Shown: positions 4,214 through 35,716 of the stretch, piece after piece | How positions within the stretch are numbered: the first letter of the stretch is position 1 | How the letters are laid out: each line of letters opens with the position of its first letter | From: a virus | Taxonomy: Duplodnaviria; Caudoviricetes | IMG/VR virus record: IMGVR_UViG_3300037424_000485 | Span: 1-64,000 of that record | Reading direction: 5' to 3' (one strand) | DNA length: 64,000 nucleotides | Translations under genes and position numbers: made by a program | Notes under the pieces: generated by a model | What the model was told of the DNA's origin: nothing | The model's database searches: none | Seen by the model: the letters and a program-made list of their open reading frames with translations, nothing else

Positions 4214-5785
4214 TTATATTGGATTGTTGTAGTTTCTATCAAATCTTTGAGATATTGGTATTGAAGAGTCATTAGCTCCTAATATATAGTTGATAATTCT
4301 TAAATATTCATATTCTATATTATGGATAACTATATCAATACCATTACCAACGTCAGCACCTTTATATGCAAAAGCAAATGTTGTTGAACTACTTTCAACT
4401 CCGTCAAGTTCTGTGGTTGTTCCAGTTGATAATATTCTTATTTCAGTACCTGCTATAAGACCTGTTAGTGTTAATGTAACTGATTGAACAACAGCTGTTG
4501 TTGCACCAATACCATTTCTAACACTAGGGGATTGTCCACCACCACCAACATTAAGAGTAATCAAACCACCTGAGTTATTGTAAAACATTGCGTCAGCACT
4601 TCCAGAACTCTCGACAAGATTTGATCCTCTTGTACCAGTGTATCCAGTGTCTGTATTTCCAGTCCATGCGTATGTACCTATGGTATCACATCTAACTGCA
4701 TGTTTAGTTCCACTAGATGTAAAATCACAATATGTTACCAGACTTGGGTTGTCGCTTAATATGGCTTTCTCGGTATCGAATGTCTTATCAAAAATACATC
4801 CAGTGAAAGTAGCTCCACCTTGTGTAACTAACCCACATCTACGATATATGGTACTTAGCAATGTAGAGTTTGATTGATATGTAAAAAACCCCATATCAGT
4901 AAAAGCACAGCTTGTTTTTGCAACAACGACATTGACAACAACTACAAAATCACCACGACTAACAGTACCAAGTGCGGTTATATTTACGGTATTCAATTCT
5001 ATATTTGATCCTATCGTGTTTATCTCTATTCTATTAAAGGTTGGTTTTACAAACAGTGTATTATCAATAACTATGCTAACGTTTGCATCTCTAAAATCAA
5101 CAAGAGAACCATACCCAAGATTCATCAAACCTTTGAATTTATAACCGCCTTCGATCTTCTTAAACAATCCCCACTTTGCATTGATATCATCATTAGCTAA
5201 TGCCATACCAGCAAAGGTTGCATAATTTGCTGTCTCTCCACCATTAACTCTAAACTCACCCCTTCCAAAACGGGTAGCGTCCATGCCTTGTGGTGATCCT
5301 TTAGCAACAGCAGTTATTGCTTTACATCCTATTCCACAATATCTATATGTAGTTCCTGGTGTTCCTGTTGTAACATCAGGAGTCACTTCTGGATCTGCTA
5401 CGAAGTTCTGCCAACCACCCTCTGGGTAAGATCCGAAATCATTACCACCAACATAGTATGCTCTATGGTTTGCTGTGTCTGCGCCGATTATCAGTGCCAC
5501 CCCGCCATTTGCTCTTGTATCAACAGCAGCAGCGGCCAGGAAAACCCCCCACATGAAGAAGTTCCATCCAGAAGTCCATGTGATATTTGATCCATAATCC
5601 ACGGCGATAGATCCCATACCAACTACAGCTAGAATTGCAGAACCATGTGATGTTCCTTGAATAGGAAAATCGGTATCAAGTGATTGTGTACGACCAGCTG
5701 TATAATTAGTAAATTCAAGAGAGGAGAAAGCACTTTCAAAAAGAAAAAAGGTTTGAAGGTCTGTTGTATATGTAGGTGTTGCCAT
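4214..5785 (-). CDS. Virion structural protein (tail-associated)
   Basis: 523 aa G/T-rich beta-type composition; ends DRNYNNPI. Confidence 0.55.
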   Translation of the reverse strand: MATPTYTTDLQTFFLFESAFSSLEFTNYTAGRTQSLDTDFPIQGTSHGSAILAVVGMGSIAVDYGSNITWTSGWNFFMWGVFLAAAAVDTRANGGVALIIGADTANHRAYYVGGNDFGSYPEGGWQNFVADPEVTPDVTTGTPGTTYRYCGIGCKAITAVAKGSPQGMDATRFGRGEFRVNGGETANYATFAGMALANDDINAKWGLFKKIEGGYKFKGLMNLGYGSLVDFRDANVSIVIDNTLFVKPTFNRIEINTIGSNIELNTVNITALGTVSRGDFVVVVNVVVAKTSCAFTDMGFFTYQSNSTLLSTIYRRCGLVTQGGATFTGCIFDKTFDTEKAILSDNPSLVTYCDFTSSGTKHAVRCDTIGTYAWTGNTDTGYTGTRGSNLVESSGSADAMFYNNSGGLITLNVGGGGQSPSVRNGIGATTAVVQSVTLTLTGLIAGTEIRILSTGTTTELDGVESSSTTFAFAYKGADVGNGIDIVIHNIEYEYLRIINYILGANDSSIPISQRFDRNYNNPI

Positions 5786-12473: not shown

Positions 12474-12833
12474 ATGACCAGACTTACTATATTTCTGAAG
12501 GATGACGCAACAGTGGTAGGAGATATATCAACAAATACAGCTGGTGCTAGTGGTGATACCTCACAGACTACCAATAAGAAAAAAAAGAAATCTAATCTGA
12601 TGTCAAGATTGATAGCAGAAAACGTAATAAAATTTAGTATTTCACATGAGAATGGAGTAGAAAGACTAAACAAGCTCCAAGACAAATATCCAGATGCTGT
12701 ATTTACATATAGCCTTACCCATGATATAACTGGTGATGTTAGCGGTAATGGGGTTATAGAAGTCTCAGATGTATGGTATAATGACATTAAAGCGATCATA
12801 AAAGATTATAAATGGCTAGACTTATCCGACTAG
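12474..12833 (+). CDS. Hypothetical protein
   Basis: 119-aa ORF with GGAG RBS. Confidence 0.55.
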   Translation: MTRLTIFLKDDATVVGDISTNTAGASGDTSQTTNKKKKKSNLMSRLIAENVIKFSISHENGVERLNKLQDKYPDAVFTYSLTHDITGDVSGNGVIEVSDVWYNDIKAIIKDYKWLDLSD

Positions 12834-13043
12834 TTGAAATACAAAAAGGTTTACAATTATATGAAAAGATGGAAGAGGTGTATCTTCAAGATAATAAACC
12901 TTCGAGAGGATTGGTTTGTGTGTATCGTACTATTATTTATCTATGCCGTAATATCTGCCATTATGGTATATACTATTGTAATGTTATCTATACCATACGT
13001 TCATCCTGTATTGTGGGGTAAAAATATATTTAATTTATTTTAA
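12834..13043 (+). CDS. Small membrane protein
   Basis: Hydrophobic central segment. Confidence 0.4.
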   Translation: MKYKKVYNYMKRWKRCIFKIINLREDWFVCIVLLFIYAVISAIMVYTIVMLSIPYVHPVLWGKNIFNLF

Positions 13044-13051
13044 ATAATATA

Positions 13052-13080
13052 TTTACAACATATTATAATTATGGTAGGAT
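13052..13080 (+). promoter_or_regulatory. Sigma70-type promoter TTTACA-17-TAGGAT driving the RNAs and Ro60 gene
   Basis: Direct sequence match with 17-bp spacer. Confidence 0.6.
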
Positions 13081-13098
13081 GTGAATATGATTATGTAT

Positions 13099-13140
13099 GG
13101 CGTAGTTAAGAGATACTTCAAAAAACATCTCTCTTAACGA
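13099..13140 (+). ncRNA. Candidate Ro60-associated RNA element 1 (CGTAG-stem-TACTTC)
   Basis: GTTAAGAGA (13105-13113) pairs with TCTCTTAAC (13130-13138); flanking motifs shared with element 2. Confidence 0.5.
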
Positions 13141-13228
13141 TTGTTCCTATATACTCACTTACACATGCTGTGATATTGTATAAAAATATATTGTATAAAA
13201 ATAAAAATAAAAATAAACTTAAATAAAG

Positions 13229-13354
13229 TACCGTAGAAAATGGATACTTCATACAAAACCTTGATTTATAGCTCTGATATTAGAAATCTTGCGCTTTCTA
13301 ATATTACCTATATAATTTGGTAGTAAAATACCCGATTTTATACCCCCATTTTTG
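13229..13354 (+). ncRNA. Candidate Ro60-associated multi-arm RNA element 2 (Y-RNA-like architecture)
   Basis: AAAATGG (13237-13243)/CCATTTT (13346-13352) closing stem; inner hairpins 13277-13304, 13305-13322, 13324-13340; same CGTAG and ATACTTC motifs. Confidence 0.55.
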
Positions 13355-13405
13355 AATGTTGTCTTTATTAATTTGTAAAATTCTATCCAAGGGAGGATAT
13401 GACGT

Positions 13406-14938
13406 ATGAGTAAATTCACAACCAGCACTGTAGGTGCAGACAAAACCGTAAACCATGAGGGCGCACCAGCCTATAAAATGACTCCTGAATTGGAGCTTTA
13501 TAGCTTGGTTTGCACCACAACACTATCAAACACATTCTATACAACATCAAATGACACCGTGACCAGAATTAGATCGTTGATCAAACAGGTATCACCTGAG
13601 TTTGTTGCTAAACTTGCTGTATATGCCAGAGAAAGCATGTATCTGCGATCAATCCCTCTTGTCCTTGTTGTGGAGCTTGCAATGGCATCAACCCCTCAAT
13701 ATAAAGAGGGTCTTGTTAGCAAAACTACAGAGCGTGTGATTCAGAGAGCTGATGAAATTACTGAGATTCTTGGTTACTATGCTATGGCCAATGGTCGTAC
13801 AGGAAGTAAGAAGCTAGGTAAGTTATCAAATCAATTGAAGAAAGGTATTGCTGAATCATTTCATAAATTCGATGAATATGCCTTTGGAAAATATAATCGC
13901 AAGACTGATGTTCGTCTTAGAGATGCCCTATTTCTTACACATCCTAAACCATTGGATGATATAGAAAAAGAGCTGTTCCGTAAGATCGCTCAAGATGAAT
14001 TGGCCACTCCTGAGACATGGGAAGTTAAAATGTCTGAAGCTGGAAAGGCTGATACAGAAGGGACTACCAAGAAACAAGTATGGGAAGACATGATCGACTC
14101 AGATAAGTTTGGATATATGGCATGTATTAGAAACTTGAAAAATATTCTCGAATCTGAAGTTTCATCGGGACATATTGATAAGGTATGTTCACAGATAAGT
14201 GATCGTGATAATGTTCTTAGAAGCAAGCAGTTTCCTTTCAGGTTTCTATCAGCTTATCGCATGCTTGTTAGCAGTAAACCAAGCTTTGATACTGGTAGGG
14301 TGTTGGAAGCACTTGAATTGGCAATGATTCATTCTGCTGAAAATATCCCTATGTTTGATGGTGAGAACGTTAAAATTGCATCTGATGTATCTGGATCAAT
14401 GTGTTCACCTATCTCAGATAAATCAACTGTTCAAATGTATGATGTTGGTATTGTTCTTTCTATGTTGCTACAACATAAATGTAAGAGAGTAGTTACGGGT
14501 ATTTTTGGTACAAGCTATCTGGAACAAACCCTTCCAAAGAATAACATTTTAGCAAATTCCATGAAAATGGGTTCTTTATCTAGTAAGGTTGGCTGGGCCA
14601 CTAATGGTCATCTTATTATTGAAGATGCTATCAAAAAGAAACAAGATCTTGACCGTATCATGATTTTTACCGATATGCAGATTTGGGATAATAATAGGAT
14701 TTCTTATAATCATAATAGTGTACCCTCTATACAGAATTTATGGGTTACATATAAAAAAATGAATCCAAAATGTAAGCTAATCATTTTTGATCTTGCTGGT
14801 TATGGTACAAGTCCATTATCATTAAGAGATAATGATGTATTTTTGATTGCTGGATTCTCTGATAAAGTATTCACTATGCTTGATAGTATAGAAAAAGGTA
14901 GTGATGTATTAGATGTAATCAATAATATCATCATCTGA
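13406..14938 (+). CDS. rsr: Ro60/TROVE-domain RNA-binding protein with C-terminal vWA
   Basis: NHEGAPAY...ELYSLV, YARESMYLRSIP, TPETWEV, MACIRNL, PFRFLSAY, vWA IASDVSGSM and IMIFTDMQ. Confidence 0.92.
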   Translation: MSKFTTSTVGADKTVNHEGAPAYKMTPELELYSLVCTTTLSNTFYTTSNDTVTRIRSLIKQVSPEFVAKLAVYARESMYLRSIPLVLVVELAMASTPQYKEGLVSKTTERVIQRADEITEILGYYAMANGRTGSKKLGKLSNQLKKGIAESFHKFDEYAFGKYNRKTDVRLRDALFLTHPKPLDDIEKELFRKIAQDELATPETWEVKMSEAGKADTEGTTKKQVWEDMIDSDKFGYMACIRNLKNILESEVSSGHIDKVCSQISDRDNVLRSKQFPFRFLSAYRMLVSSKPSFDTGRVLEALELAMIHSAENIPMFDGENVKIASDVSGSMCSPISDKSTVQMYDVGIVLSMLLQHKCKRVVTGIFGTSYLEQTLPKNNILANSMKMGSLSSKVGWATNGHLIIEDAIKKKQDLDRIMIFTDMQIWDNNRISYNHNSVPSIQNLWVTYKKMNPKCKLIIFDLAGYGTSPLSLRDNDVFLIAGFSDKVFTMLDSIEKGSDVLDVINNIII

Positions 14939-15047
14939 GGGAGATTGTCATGGAAGAATTAAAAATTTATCCATTTTGTGGTTATAATGCTGACCATGTT
15001 GATCTATCGTATTAATCATATGCTATTATTTGCATGGAGGTGGTATA

Positions 15048-34267: not shown

Positions 34268-35716
34268 ATGAAATTTATACAGTATATAAATGAATCCTCA
34301 GATGTAGATATCAAGAAAAGATGGGCTGATTATATCAAATCTGATCTCATGATTAAGAATGGTGTGGATATCCTTAGAAAAATTAACTCTAAAGGATATG
34401 ATGCTTTTATTGTTGGCGGTGCTGTTCGTGATCTCATCCTTGGTGATAAACCTCATGATATAGATATATCTACCAATTGTCCTATGGATGTTCTTGAGAA
34501 GATGTTCAAGACATATGATATCGGCAAATCCAAAACATTTGGTATTGTTGCTGTTAATCAAGGCGGTAATACTTATGAGATAGCTCAATTTAGAAATGAG
34601 AGTGATTATTCAAACGGTAGACACCCTGATACTATCAAAATAGTTAAAGATTTTAAATCAGATGCTGCACGTAGGGATTTAACCATCAATGCAATGGCTG
34701 TAGATGCTGATGGTAATATTATAGATCATTTCAACGGTAAGAGAGCTGTTTTCGATAAGGTAATCAAAACTGTTGGTAATCCTAATGATAGATTCCAAGA
34801 AGACCACCTCAGAATGATGAGGGCTGTACGTTTTTCTGGCAAGTTGGGGTTTGACATTGATGTTGAAACTAAAGATTCTATCAAGAAAAACAAAGACCTT
34901 ATCAAGAACATCTCTATTGAGAGAGTTAAAGATGAGCTTATTAAGATGGCATCCCAAGAAGGTAATAAATTTGCAGATAGCATTTTGATGTTGGATGAAG
35001 TTGGCATTCTTGATATCATCCTTCCAGAGATTACTAAATTAAAGCAGTTCAAAGAGACTGAGAGGCACCATCCTGAAGCATATGAGAATGGGGGAGGTAC
35101 TGTATTCGATCATACCATTGCAGCTCTTAGAATGAATAAATTGATAGATCCTCTTGTTAATTTGGGTGTGTTGTTTCATGACATTGGCAAGCAATCTACA
35201 TATAAATGGGATTCTGATAAAGATTCTCATTCTTACCATGGACATGCTAAAGAGGGTAAAGACCTTATTGATATTATAGCTAAGAGGCTGAAGTTATCAA
35301 ATAAAGAGTATGATTCTATCTTGTTTTCTATGGTAAATCACATGAGTCTGTTTAATGGCATTGATATGAAGCCATCGAAAATTATAAAACTGGTTAAAGA
35401 TGAAAACTGGAATATCTTAGTTCAAGTAAGTTACTGTGATGACAGTTGCAGGACTAACCTTTTTGACAAAAAAACATTTGACAGCACCATTGATAATATG
35501 ATTTCTATTGCTAATAAATGGGGTGATAAGATCTCTGGGACTACTGTTAAAGTTATCGATGGTAAACAGGTTATGAAATTAACTGGTATAAAACAAGGGA
35601 AACAGATTGGAGAAATAATCAGTACGGTTACTGATATTGTTCTCAGAAATGGTATTAAAAATCAAAAAGATATAAATACACTTATAATGAAAGTCTTTAA
35701 TGACATGGAGAAATAA
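34268..35716 (+). CDS. cca: CCA tRNA nucleotidyltransferase with HD domain and capsid-targeting-like N-terminus
   Basis: VGGAVRDL..DIDI, ARRDLTINAMA, EDHLRMMRAVRF, DHT...FHDIGK; starts MKFIQYINE. Confidence 0.9.
   Translation: MKFIQYINESSDVDIKKRWADYIKSDLMIKNGVDILRKINSKGYDAFIVGGAVRDLILGDKPHDIDISTNCPMDVLEKMFKTYDIGKSKTFGIVAVNQGGNTYEIAQFRNESDYSNGRHPDTIKIVKDFKSDAARRDLTINAMAVDADGNIIDHFNGKRAVFDKVIKTVGNPNDRFQEDHLRMMRAVRFSGKLGFDIDVETKDSIKKNKDLIKNISIERVKDELIKMASQEGNKFADSILMLDEVGILDIILPEITKLKQFKETERHHPEAYENGGGTVFDHTIAALRMNKLIDPLVNLGVLFHDIGKQSTYKWDSDKDSHSYHGHAKEGKDLIDIIAKRLKLSNKEYDSILFSMVNHMSLFNGIDMKPSKIIKLVKDENWNILVQVSYCDDSCRTNLFDKKTFDSTIDNMISIANKWGDKISGTTVKVIDGKQVMKLTGIKQGKQIGEIISTVTDIVLRNGIKNQKDINTLIMKVFNDMEK

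What the first reader, a model, noticed from the sequence alone, without database searches (positions are those of the whole stretch)
13099..13354. Two related structured RNAs upstream of the phage Ro60 gene: candidate new Y-RNA class
Seen: after a sigma70 promoter, two elements share CGTAG-[stem]-ATACTTC while their stems differ in sequence yet pair (GTTAAGAGA/TCTCTTAAC; AAAATGG/CCATTTT). Element 1 is a minimal hairpin. Element 2 encloses three more hairpins (10-bp 13277-13304, 13305-13322, 13324-13340), giving a cloverleaf-like shape. Known: Ro60 orthologues are encoded beside Y RNAs, and YrlA combines a Ro-binding helix with a tRNA-like domain. No T-loop GTTC signature or canonical Y-RNA helix was seen, so this may be a distinct Ro60-ligand family, or an autoregulatory leader. 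With the CCA enzyme and cyclic-phosphate receiver elsewhere in the window, it fits an RNA-repair/anti-RNase defence role.
Basis: partly seen in the sequence, partly recalled or inferred. Interest (0 to 1): 0.72.

Follow-up and report, generated by a model that had tools for sequence, protein, structure and literature searches.

The report
Two Y RNAs beside phage Ro60
The two look-alike folds upstream of this phage's Ro60 gene are very probably its partner Y RNAs, built on the Ro60-binding "handle" that Bacteroidota and many phages use; this is a new but fairly ordinary example of a known RNA-protein particle, and the larger RNA carries an unusual head that does not resemble tRNA.

Summary
Element 1 (13096-13149) and element 2 (13227-13364) lie on the Ro60 strand just upstream of an intact TROVE+vWA gene (13406-14938). 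They share one closing "handle": 5' GYCGUAG, an 8-bp variable stem, then WUACUUC; on the 3' side the stem, then YGNNUGUNNCC.

The handle is not a new Ro60 ligand class. I found it in 98 of 164 TROVE loci, with 233 motif hits on the Ro60 strand and 5 on the other. It covaries strongly. In Bacteroidota and phage loci it closes RNAs that match Rfam YrlA (RF02553) at E 2e-8 to 1e-3, below that family's gathering score.

A covariance model built only from 147 Bacteroidota elements finds both window elements (47.6 bits, E 8e-12; 26.7 bits, E 4e-6) and nothing else near significance in the 204-kb genome.

- Element 1 is a short YrlB-like hairpin.
- Element 2 has no T or D arm. Its head is a long hairpin plus a covarying GUAAAA-loop hairpin, seen only in four relatives from three contigs.

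Two Y-like RNAs upstream of a phage Ro60 gene are already published (Thermus phage phiLo). This scan has reported the same handle on other DNA. Expression and Ro60 binding are untested.

The parts
13052..13080 (+). Sigma70-like promoter candidate: TTTACA, 17 nt, TAGGAT with a TG extension. It ends about 16 nt before element 1.
   Evidence: 9 of 12 matches, not above chance alone. Relatives have a positionally equivalent site before their first element: L005 1221-1249, a 12/12 match, and L006 2325-2353.
13096..13149 (+). Element 1, a short YrlB-like Y RNA candidate. Outer helix 13096-13101 pairs with 13143-13149, with U13098 and U13144-U13145 bulged. Internal loop GUA (13102-13104) faces GAUU (13139-13142). 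The 8-bp stem is 13105-13112 with 13131-13138. The loop starts with AUACUUC (13113-13119).
   Evidence: Model R2, built only from Bacteroidota loci, scores it 47.6 bits: E 7.7e-12 in an 8-kb search and 2e-10 genome-wide. All 13 model pairs are standard. The MFE fold agrees and extends the helix to 13089-13156.
13173..13202 (+). Tandem 15-nt direct repeat, ATATTGTATAAAAAT twice, in the AT-rich spacer between the two elements. Its role is unknown; it could be a promoter or a processing signal.
   Evidence: Read directly; not followed up.
13227..13364 (+). Element 2, a Y RNA candidate with a non-tRNA head. The handle 5' strand is 13227-13250 (CCGUAG-AAAAUGG-AUACUUC). The head is 13251-13345. The handle 3' strand is 13346-13364 (CCAUUUU-UGAAUGUUGUCU).
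   Evidence: R2 scores it 26.7 bits, E 3.6e-6, full length, with no non-standard pair. All 13 handle pairs form, with compensatory differences from element 1. Orthologous elements exist in L005, L007 and L006 (two copies).
13267..13312 (+). Long composite hairpin in the head of element 2. UAUAG pairs with CUAUA, then an internal loop, then a 12-bp stem (13275-13286 with 13295-13306) and the loop UCUUGCGC.
   Evidence: Folds. The L005 orthologue keeps it with changes (AUGUAG/CUACAU; loop UCUUGCGG).
13319..13332 (+). Conserved hexaloop hairpin: GGUA, GUAAAA, UACC. This is the only head feature shared by all five elements of this phage clade.
   Evidence: RNAalifold on A3 gives 4 pairs; 3 of them have changes on both sides in some sequences (GC/AU).
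13373..13381 (+). Conserved TTGTAAAAT box between element 2 and the Ro60 ribosome-binding site. It may be the -10 element of a separate Ro60 promoter or a processing signal.
   Evidence: Present in the window, L005, L007 and, as ATGTAAAAA, in L006. One search lists TTGAAT-18-TAAAAT ending at 13381. Function not tested.
13406..14938 (+). Ro60 (Rsr) orthologue, 510 aa, with TROVE and vWA domains. The Shine-Dalgarno sequence GGAGG lies at 13392-13396.
   Evidence: Pfam TROVE 1.5e-30 and vWA_Ro60 6.1e-9. Full-length match to Thermus phage phiLo Ro60, PDB 9KOP/9L5Y, E 1.5e-32. Best cellular relatives are Bacteroidota at 50-54% identity.

Best explanation
Elements 1 and 2 are two small non-coding Y RNAs that partner the phage's own Ro60 protein.

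Each is closed by the same Ro60-binding handle, made by pairing its 5' and 3' ends. The handle is a bulged outer helix, a conserved internal loop (GUA opposite G-N-N-U), a variable 8-bp stem, and the conserved single-stranded UACUUC. By analogy with the frog, Deinococcus, Salmonella and phage phiLo particles, Ro60 would grip this handle, mainly its 5' strand, on the outside of its ring. The other end of the RNA, the head, would gate the Ro60 cavity and/or tether a partner such as a host 3'-5' exoribonuclease (PNPase).

- Element 1 is a head-less YrlB-like hairpin.
- Element 2 sits where YrlA-type RNAs carry a tRNA mimic. It carries instead a lineage-specific head: a long hairpin plus a GUAAAA-loop hairpin.
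- The RNAs are probably transcribed from an early-type sigma70-like promoter at 13052-13080, either as their own unit or as a precursor with the Ro60 mRNA.

Shown here: the sequence and structure signature, covariation, strand- and locus-specific association with Ro60, and homology of the handle to YrlA-type RNAs. Inferred: expression, Ro60 binding and the effector.
For: 1. Location: same strand, 42 nt upstream of an intact TROVE+vWA gene.
2. Handle covariation: in 14 short elements, 96% of cells are paired and 10 of 13 pairs show changes on both sides. No shuffle in 500 reached the observed pairing or covariation score, and slid controls give 43-51%. In 134 unique elements the four variable outer-helix pairs are 93-96% paired against 42-63% when slid.
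3. Specificity: the 5' motif occurs 233 times on the Ro60 strand and 5 times on the other in 164 TROVE loci (1.1 Mb). With a matching 3' partner the count is 138 against 1. Model R1 gives 78 hits in viral loci and 147 hits at E<=1e-5 in 80 Bacteroidota loci, all on the Ro60 strand.
4. Independent model: R2, trained without any window sequence, finds both elements. Genome-wide its only other hit is a weak partial alignment of element 2 itself (14.5 bits, E 0.18).
5. Link to the known family: elements with the same handle in L146, L099, L019, L117 and L101 match Rfam YrlA end to end at E 2e-8 to 1e-3. The Rfam consensus ends, 5' cggCGAAUG and 3' UUGUCGCC, correspond to GYCGUAG and UUGUYRCC. These elements show the published order: handle, T arm, acceptor-like stem, D arm, handle (Chen et al. 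2014, PMC4201824).
6. Published motifs: GNCGAAN0-1G and YUAY (PMC4201824) against GCGUAG/CCGUAG and AUAC here.
7. Precedent: two Y-like RNAs upstream of a phage Ro60 gene bind that protein and host PNPase (PMC12135203). Species usually have one short hairpin Y RNA plus one larger one (PMC4201824).
8. Conservation: close phage relatives (Ro60 74%, 69% and 61% identical) keep the elements while the stem sequences change.
Against: - No transcript, RNA ends or binding data exist for this uncultured phage.
- Neither element reaches any Rfam family, even at E<=10. Neither has a T or D arm, whereas Chen et al. reported at least one tRNA-like Y RNA per species.
- The 5' motif has U where published YrlA RNAs have A (CGUAG against CGAAG). 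Binding of this variant has never been tested.
- No terminator follows either element, so discrete RNAs would need processing.
- Element 2 scores only 26.7 bits, and model calibration was shortened, so its E-value is rough.
- The loop of element 1 is A-rich, not pyrimidine-rich as described for YrlB and Yrn2.
Confidence: 0.85

Rival explanations
1. The elements are not free RNAs. They are cis-acting parts of the Ro60 mRNA leader, where Ro60 binds its own 5' UTR and autoregulates translation or stability.
For: Element 2 ends only 42 nt before the Ro60 start codon. No intrinsic terminator separates them. In this phage clade the elements are always upstream of the gene.
Against: In most loci with the same handle, the elements lie downstream of Ro60, often in arrays of 3-6 and next to tRNA genes; a leader cannot do that. 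I saw no conserved anti-Shine-Dalgarno pairing: the C-run of element 2 is absent from L005. A conserved TTGTAAAAT box between element 2 and the ribosome-binding site could give Ro60 its own promoter. In M. smegmatis and D. radiodurans, upstream Y RNAs are processed out of precursors (PMC4201824).
Confidence: 0.07
2. The elements are decayed remnants of tRNA or YrlA genes that are no longer functional.
For: Element 2 lacks the T and D arms that define YrlA. In L006 and L007 the hexaloop hairpin reads UCA(G/A)UGGUA, which resembles a D-loop. The genome is AT-rich.
Against: All 13 handle pairs are intact in both elements. Compensatory changes are maintained across relatives with 61-74% identical Ro60, which indicates purifying selection on structure.
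Confidence: 0.04
3. The elements are chance hairpins in AT-rich intergenic DNA.
For: Single-sequence folding z-scores are modest: -2.0 to -2.4.
Against: Expected 0.07 modules per genome against 2 observed, adjacent to each other and beside Ro60. Independent model E-values are 8e-12 and 4e-6.
Confidence: 0.01

Closest known systems
YrlA / YrlB Y RNAs of Salmonella Typhimurium, Mycobacterium smegmatis and mycobacteriophages (Rfam RF02553; Chen et al. 2014, PMC4201824; Wang et al. 2018, bioRxiv 10.1101/312249)
   Same: - Encoded next to Ro60 on the same strand.
- Closing stem made from the 5' and 3' ends, with a conserved 5'-strand motif (GNCGAAN0-1G against GYCGUAG), followed by YUAY (AUAC here).
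- A 3' strand UUGUYRCC as in the Rfam consensus.
- One small hairpin RNA plus one larger RNA per locus.
   Different: - U replaces A in the core motif.
- Neither window RNA has the T arm, acceptor-like stem and D arm that define YrlA.
- No Rfam hit at E<=10.
- The head of element 2 is a long hairpin plus a GUAAAA hairpin, found only in this phage clade.
Thermus phage phiLo Yrl1 / Yrl2 with phiRo60 (PMC12135203; PDB 9KOP, 9L5Y)
   Same: Two Y-like RNAs lie directly upstream of a phage Ro60 gene. The window Ro60 aligns full length with phiRo60 (E 1.5e-32). The RNAs share a stem-bulge-stem design with a CGAA-type motif. In vitro the phiLo RNAs bind phiRo60 and host PNPase.
   Different: The host lineage and the handle sequence differ (CGAA against CGUA). 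Nothing has been tested biochemically for the window RNAs.
Deinococcus radiodurans Yrn1 / Yrn2 and the Ro60-Y RNA-PNPase (RYPER) machine (Chen et al. 2013, as cited in PMC4201824)
   Same: Modular design: a Ro60-binding stem plus an effector module made of stem-loops. [quoted passage not shown]
   Different: The Deinococcus handle resembles the metazoan GGUCCGA helix. Yrn1 keeps a T arm. The effector of the window RNAs is unknown.

Membership tests
Bacterial/phage Y RNAs (Ro60-bound modular ncRNAs) | Encoded within about 4 kb of a Ro60/TROVE gene, on the same strand | tested here: met
   Elements at 13096-13149 and 13227-13364 (+); Ro60 at 13406-14938 (+).
Bacterial/phage Y RNAs (Ro60-bound modular ncRNAs) | [quoted passage not shown] | tested here: met
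   The stem is present with 13 of 13 pairs in both elements. The motif is G-C-G-U-A-G / C-C-G-U-A-G, one base off the published consensus. Covariation. Independent model R2. Correspondence with the Rfam YrlA consensus ends.
Bacterial/phage Y RNAs (Ro60-bound modular ncRNAs) | Physical binding to Ro60 and Ro60-dependent accumulation | not testable with these tools
   This needs an EMSA or co-immunoprecipitation and Northern blots. The phage is uncultured.
YrlA subfamily (Rfam RF02553) | tRNA-like effector module: T arm (GUUCRA loop), acceptor-like stem-loop and D arm | tested here: not met
   No GTTCRA T-loop in either element. No YrlA or tRNA hit at E<=10 in 12900-13500. ARAGORN finds nothing. 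The genome-wide YrlA search gives only weak hits elsewhere.
YrlA subfamily (Rfam RF02553) | Score at or above the Rfam gathering threshold (69 bits) | tested here: not met
   No hit. Even clearly tRNA-like Bacteroidota relatives reach only 29-51 bits.
YrlB / Yrn2-type short Y RNAs | [quoted passage not shown] | tested here: inconclusive
   Element 1 is a handle-only hairpin with an 18-nt loop. That loop (AUACUUCAAAAAACAUCU) is A-rich rather than pyrimidine-rich.
Metazoan Y RNA (Rfam RF00019) | Conserved bulged helix GGUCCGA / UUGACU | tested here: not met
   No Rfam match at E<=10. The handle has bulges but a different sequence.
tRNA | Cloverleaf with D, anticodon and T arms | tested here: not met
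   ARAGORN: none. Rfam tRNA: none at E<=10.

The most novel reading that the evidence does not exclude
The head of element 2 (long hairpin plus covarying GUAAAA-loop hairpin) is shared only with four elements in three related phage contigs. It may be a new effector-binding module that replaces the tRNA mimic. This T4-like phage would then use a Ro60 particle with no tRNA-like Y RNA at all, and would recruit a different host or phage partner than YrlA-type particles do.
Probability: 0.3. Interest if true: 0.5.

Novelty: new member of a known kind. Interest (0 to 1): 0.3.

Why it matters
It places a Ro60/Y RNA particle in an uncultured 204-kb T4-like phage that also encodes a CCA-adding-type enzyme and an RtcB ligase. 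This adds to the case that large phages bring their own RNA quality-control and repair kit.

It also shows that Rfam's YrlA model misses a whole branch at its gathering threshold: the Bacteroidota/phage CGUAG handle, with 147 confident copies in 80 genomes here. The handle-only covariance model is a practical way to annotate these RNAs whatever head they carry.

The head of element 2 is a small, testable case of head swapping on a constant Ro60 handle. None of this overturns current understanding.

Tried and rejected
1. Rfam at gathering threshold on the window and at E<=10 on 12900-13500 gave only a spurious snoRNA hit.
2. blastn of 12800-15000 against GenBank phages gave no match.
3. A scan of viral contigs for the conserved Ro60 leader pattern GGAGG-ATGACGTA-TGA returned 118 unrelated loci, none with the handle. 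That scan was wasted.
N90-120 ... TTTTGAWTGT returned Chryseobacterium-like tRNA-type YrlA elements, one phage YrlA (L307) and chance hits. No further relative of element 2's head turned up.
5. Model R1, built from short hairpins only, could not span element 2 (10.9 bits, partial alignment). The broader model R2 solved this.
6. A regex search for the GUAAAA-type hairpin just before a handle 3' strand in all loci found it only in L005, L006 and L007. The L015 match is a linker, not a loop.
7. I looked for the handle in the tRNA-shaped RNA reported elsewhere in this genome (about 133.1-133.3 kb, minus strand) and found none.
8. A simple CGAAG-type regex in the distant Ro60 loci showed no strand bias, so I draw no conclusion about which handle those loci use.
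9. I checked by eye for anti-Shine-Dalgarno pairing between element 2 and the Ro60 ribosome-binding site. It is not conserved in L005.
10. Pfam on ten neighbouring ORFs showed no RNA-related neighbour.

Full report
**Setting.** The window is the first 64 kb of a 204-kb IMG/VR virus record. Earlier notes of this scan call it an uncultured T4-like sediment phage. The ORF at 13406-14938 (+) is an intact Ro60 orthologue. Pfam gives TROVE at 1.5e-30 and vWA_Ro60 at 6e-9. It matches Thermus phage phiLo Ro60 structures 9KOP/9L5Y over its full length at E 1.5e-32. Its closest cellular relatives are Bacteroidota proteins at 50-54% identity. Three metagenomic proteins are closer, at 74%, 69% and 61%.

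**The observation.** CGTAG-N7-ATACTTC occurs at 13101 and 13232 and nowhere else in the window.
- Both N7 segments have perfect complements downstream, at 13131-13137 and 13346-13352.
This block pairs with the bases just 5' of CGUAG.
- The full handle reads: an outer helix N1 N2 (U bulge) N4 N5 C paired with G (2-nt bulge) N N N N; an internal loop GUA opposite G-N-N-U; an 8-bp variable stem; then single-stranded WUACUUC.
- Element 1 spans 13096-13149 and element 2 spans 13227-13364.
- In both, all 13 handle pairs are standard pairs. The two differ by compensatory changes in four outer-helix pairs and most stem pairs.

**Relatives.** The contigs encoding the three closest Ro60 proteins have long gaps upstream of the gene that hold the same signature: L005 once, L007 once, L006 three times. 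L008 (56% Ro60), a phage-like contig, has at least four copies downstream of Ro60.

I then fetched 80 viral and 80 genomic TROVE loci.
- The strict 5' motif occurs 233 times on the Ro60 strand and 5 times on the other strand in 164 loci (1.1 Mb). With a complementary stem and the 3' tail the count is 138 against 1. Ninety-eight loci have at least one copy.
- The motif tracks the Ro60 clade that is at least about 36% identical to the window protein. It is absent from loci with more distant Ro60s.
- In the whole 204-kb genome only the two window elements qualify. Shuffled genomes give 0.07.

**Structure statistics.**
- An alignment of 14 short elements (A2) with the handle structure shows 96% of cells paired. 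Ten of 13 pairs have changes on both sides. No shuffle in 500 reached the observed pairing or covariation score, and slid controls give 43-51%.
- On 134 unique elements, including 111 with long inserts, the four variable outer-helix pairs are 93-96% paired. The N5-N9' pair occurs as C-G 57 times, U-A 39, G-C 19 and U-G 8. Controls slid by 1-2 nt give 42-63%.
- Model R1, built from A2, finds 78 hits at E<=0.01 in 85 viral loci and 147 hits at E<=1e-5 in 80 Bacteroidota loci, all on the Ro60 strand.
- Model R2 was built only from those 147 Bacteroidota hits, so it is independent of the window. It scores element 1 at 47.6 bits (E 7.7e-12) and element 2 at 26.7 bits (E 3.6e-6), full length with no non-standard pair. 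Genome-wide its only other hit is a weak partial alignment of element 2 itself (14.5 bits, E 0.18).

**What the handle is.** In Bacteroidota and many phage loci the handle closes RNAs with the published YrlA order: handle 5' strand, variable loop, T arm (GGUUCGAAUCC), acceptor-like stem-loop, D arm (GUAGCUCAGUUGGUAGAGC), handle 3' strand.
- These RNAs match Rfam YrlA (RF02553) end to end at E 2e-8 to 1e-3. Their scores are 29-51 bits, below the 69-bit gathering score, so Rfam annotation misses them.
- The Rfam consensus ends, 5' cggCGAAUG and 3' UUGUCGCC, line up with GYCGUAG and UUGUYRCC.
- Chen et al. 2014 (PMC4201824) define YrlA and YrlB by GNCGAAN0-1G near the 5' end, which they propose contacts Ro60, and by YUAY at the start of the variable loop. 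The window has GCGUAG/CCGUAG and AUAC.
- The handle is therefore the YrlA/YrlB Ro60-binding module with a lineage-specific A-to-U change. It is not a new ligand class.

**The two window RNAs.** Among elements with a paired handle, 97 contain a T-loop motif, 24 are short hairpins, and 35 are 'other'; some of the 'other' group are spurious.
- Element 1 is a short hairpin. It is analogous to YrlB, Yrn2 and M. smegmatis YrlB, which Chen et al. describe as the second Y RNA of each species.
- Element 2 occupies the place of a YrlA but has no T or D arm. It matches no Rfam family at E<=10, and ARAGORN finds nothing.
- The head of element 2 contains a long composite hairpin (13267-13312) and a hexaloop hairpin (13319-13332: GGUA, GUAAAA, UACC).
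- Only the hexaloop hairpin is common to the five elements of this phage clade, and it covaries: GGUA/UACC, UGGUA/UAUCA, CAAUG/CAUUG, CAGUG/CAUUG, GGUG/CACC.
- I found this head nowhere else.
- In L006 and L007 the hexaloop hairpin reads UCA(G/A)UGGUA, which resembles a D-loop. The head may descend from a decayed tRNA-like module, but that is speculation.

**Expression signals.** A TTTACA-17-TAGGAT site ends 16 nt before element 1. L005 and L006 have TTGACA-17-TATAAT and TTTACA-17-TATAGT sites at the same relative place. L006 also has a terminator after the upstream gene. This suggests a transcription unit that begins with the Y RNAs. No terminator follows either element. A conserved TTGTAAAAT box lies between element 2 and the Ro60 ribosome-binding site. 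I cannot tell whether Ro60 is co-transcribed with the RNAs, as in M. smegmatis and D. radiodurans (PMC4201824), or has its own promoter.

**Mechanism (inferred).** Published work says that all characterised Y RNAs are modular. A 5'/3' stem binds Ro60, mainly through its 5' strand, and a second module tethers an effector or gates the Ro60 cavity (bioRxiv 10.1101/312249; PMC4201824). For phage phiLo, two upstream Y-like RNAs bind the phage Ro60 and host PNPase in vitro (PMC12135203). I infer the same design here, with an unknown effector for the head of element 2. The genome also encodes a CCA-adding-type nucleotidyltransferase (34403-34765) and an RtcB ligase (about 125-126 kb). This recalls the Salmonella rsr-yrlBA-rtcBA operon, but these genes are not adjacent to Ro60 here.

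**Novelty.** Y RNAs beside phage Ro60 genes are published: mycobacteriophages and other phages in PMC4201824, phiLo in PMC12135203. This scan has already reported the same Bacteroidota/phage handle on other DNA (e1-2469266, e1-5282191, e1-5376976, e1-5391322). My results were reached independently and agree with those notes. The new points are modest: this phage's pair of RNAs, the absence of any tRNA-like Y RNA at the locus, and a clade-specific head.

Noticed in passing
L041:5272-5412 and L015:4642-4771: Circularly permuted Y RNAs shaped like tRNA. They have a 7-bp acceptor stem, a D arm, a T arm and an encoded 3' (A)CCA, but the anticodon arm is replaced by a complete Ro60 handle closed at its outer end by a hairpin. 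The L041 copy folds as a clean cloverleaf (-44.4 kcal/mol).
   Followed up: partly
L008:4865-5095: A nested double Y RNA in a phage-like contig. A YrlA-type element (handle, T arm, D arm) carries a second complete handle hairpin (4941-5023) inside the loop of its acceptor-like stem, giving two Ro60-binding modules in one RNA.
   Followed up: partly
window 13399-13413: A mini-ORF, ATG ACG TAT GAG TAA, overlaps the Ro60 start codon. The string ATGACGTA(A)TGA is conserved in L005, L006 and L007, where it reads as ATG ACG TAA followed by ATG. Its ATG lies only 2 nt from the Shine-Dalgarno sequence, so it may not be translated. The reason for the conservation is unknown.
   Followed up: no
window 13173-13202: A perfect tandem 15-nt repeat, ATATTGTATAAAAAT twice, followed by (AAAAAT)n, in the spacer between the two Y RNA candidates.
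   Followed up: no
G000:C1:125220-126316 (minus strand, outside the window): The RtcB ligase match is in pieces. Profile positions 1-89 and 140-364 lie in one 371-aa frame, and positions 376-426 in a separate 60-aa frame. This could be a frameshift, an insertion or a recoding event.
   Followed up: no
L091-L170 (Bacteroidota genome loci): Ro60 genes in Flavobacterium, Chryseobacterium, Pontibacter, Chitinophaga and others are followed by arrays of up to 5-6 handle-bearing RNAs, often beside tRNA gene arrays. Their heads include tRNA mimics, variant T arms (GGUGCAAAUCC) and non-tRNA modules. Rfam's YrlA gathering score misses all of them.
   Followed up: partly
window 12812-13021: The 69-aa ORF just upstream of the Y RNA unit has no Pfam match. 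A 69-aa gene occupies the same position in L006, and the DNA around its start is conserved in L005, so the neighbourhood is syntenic in this phage clade.
   Followed up: no
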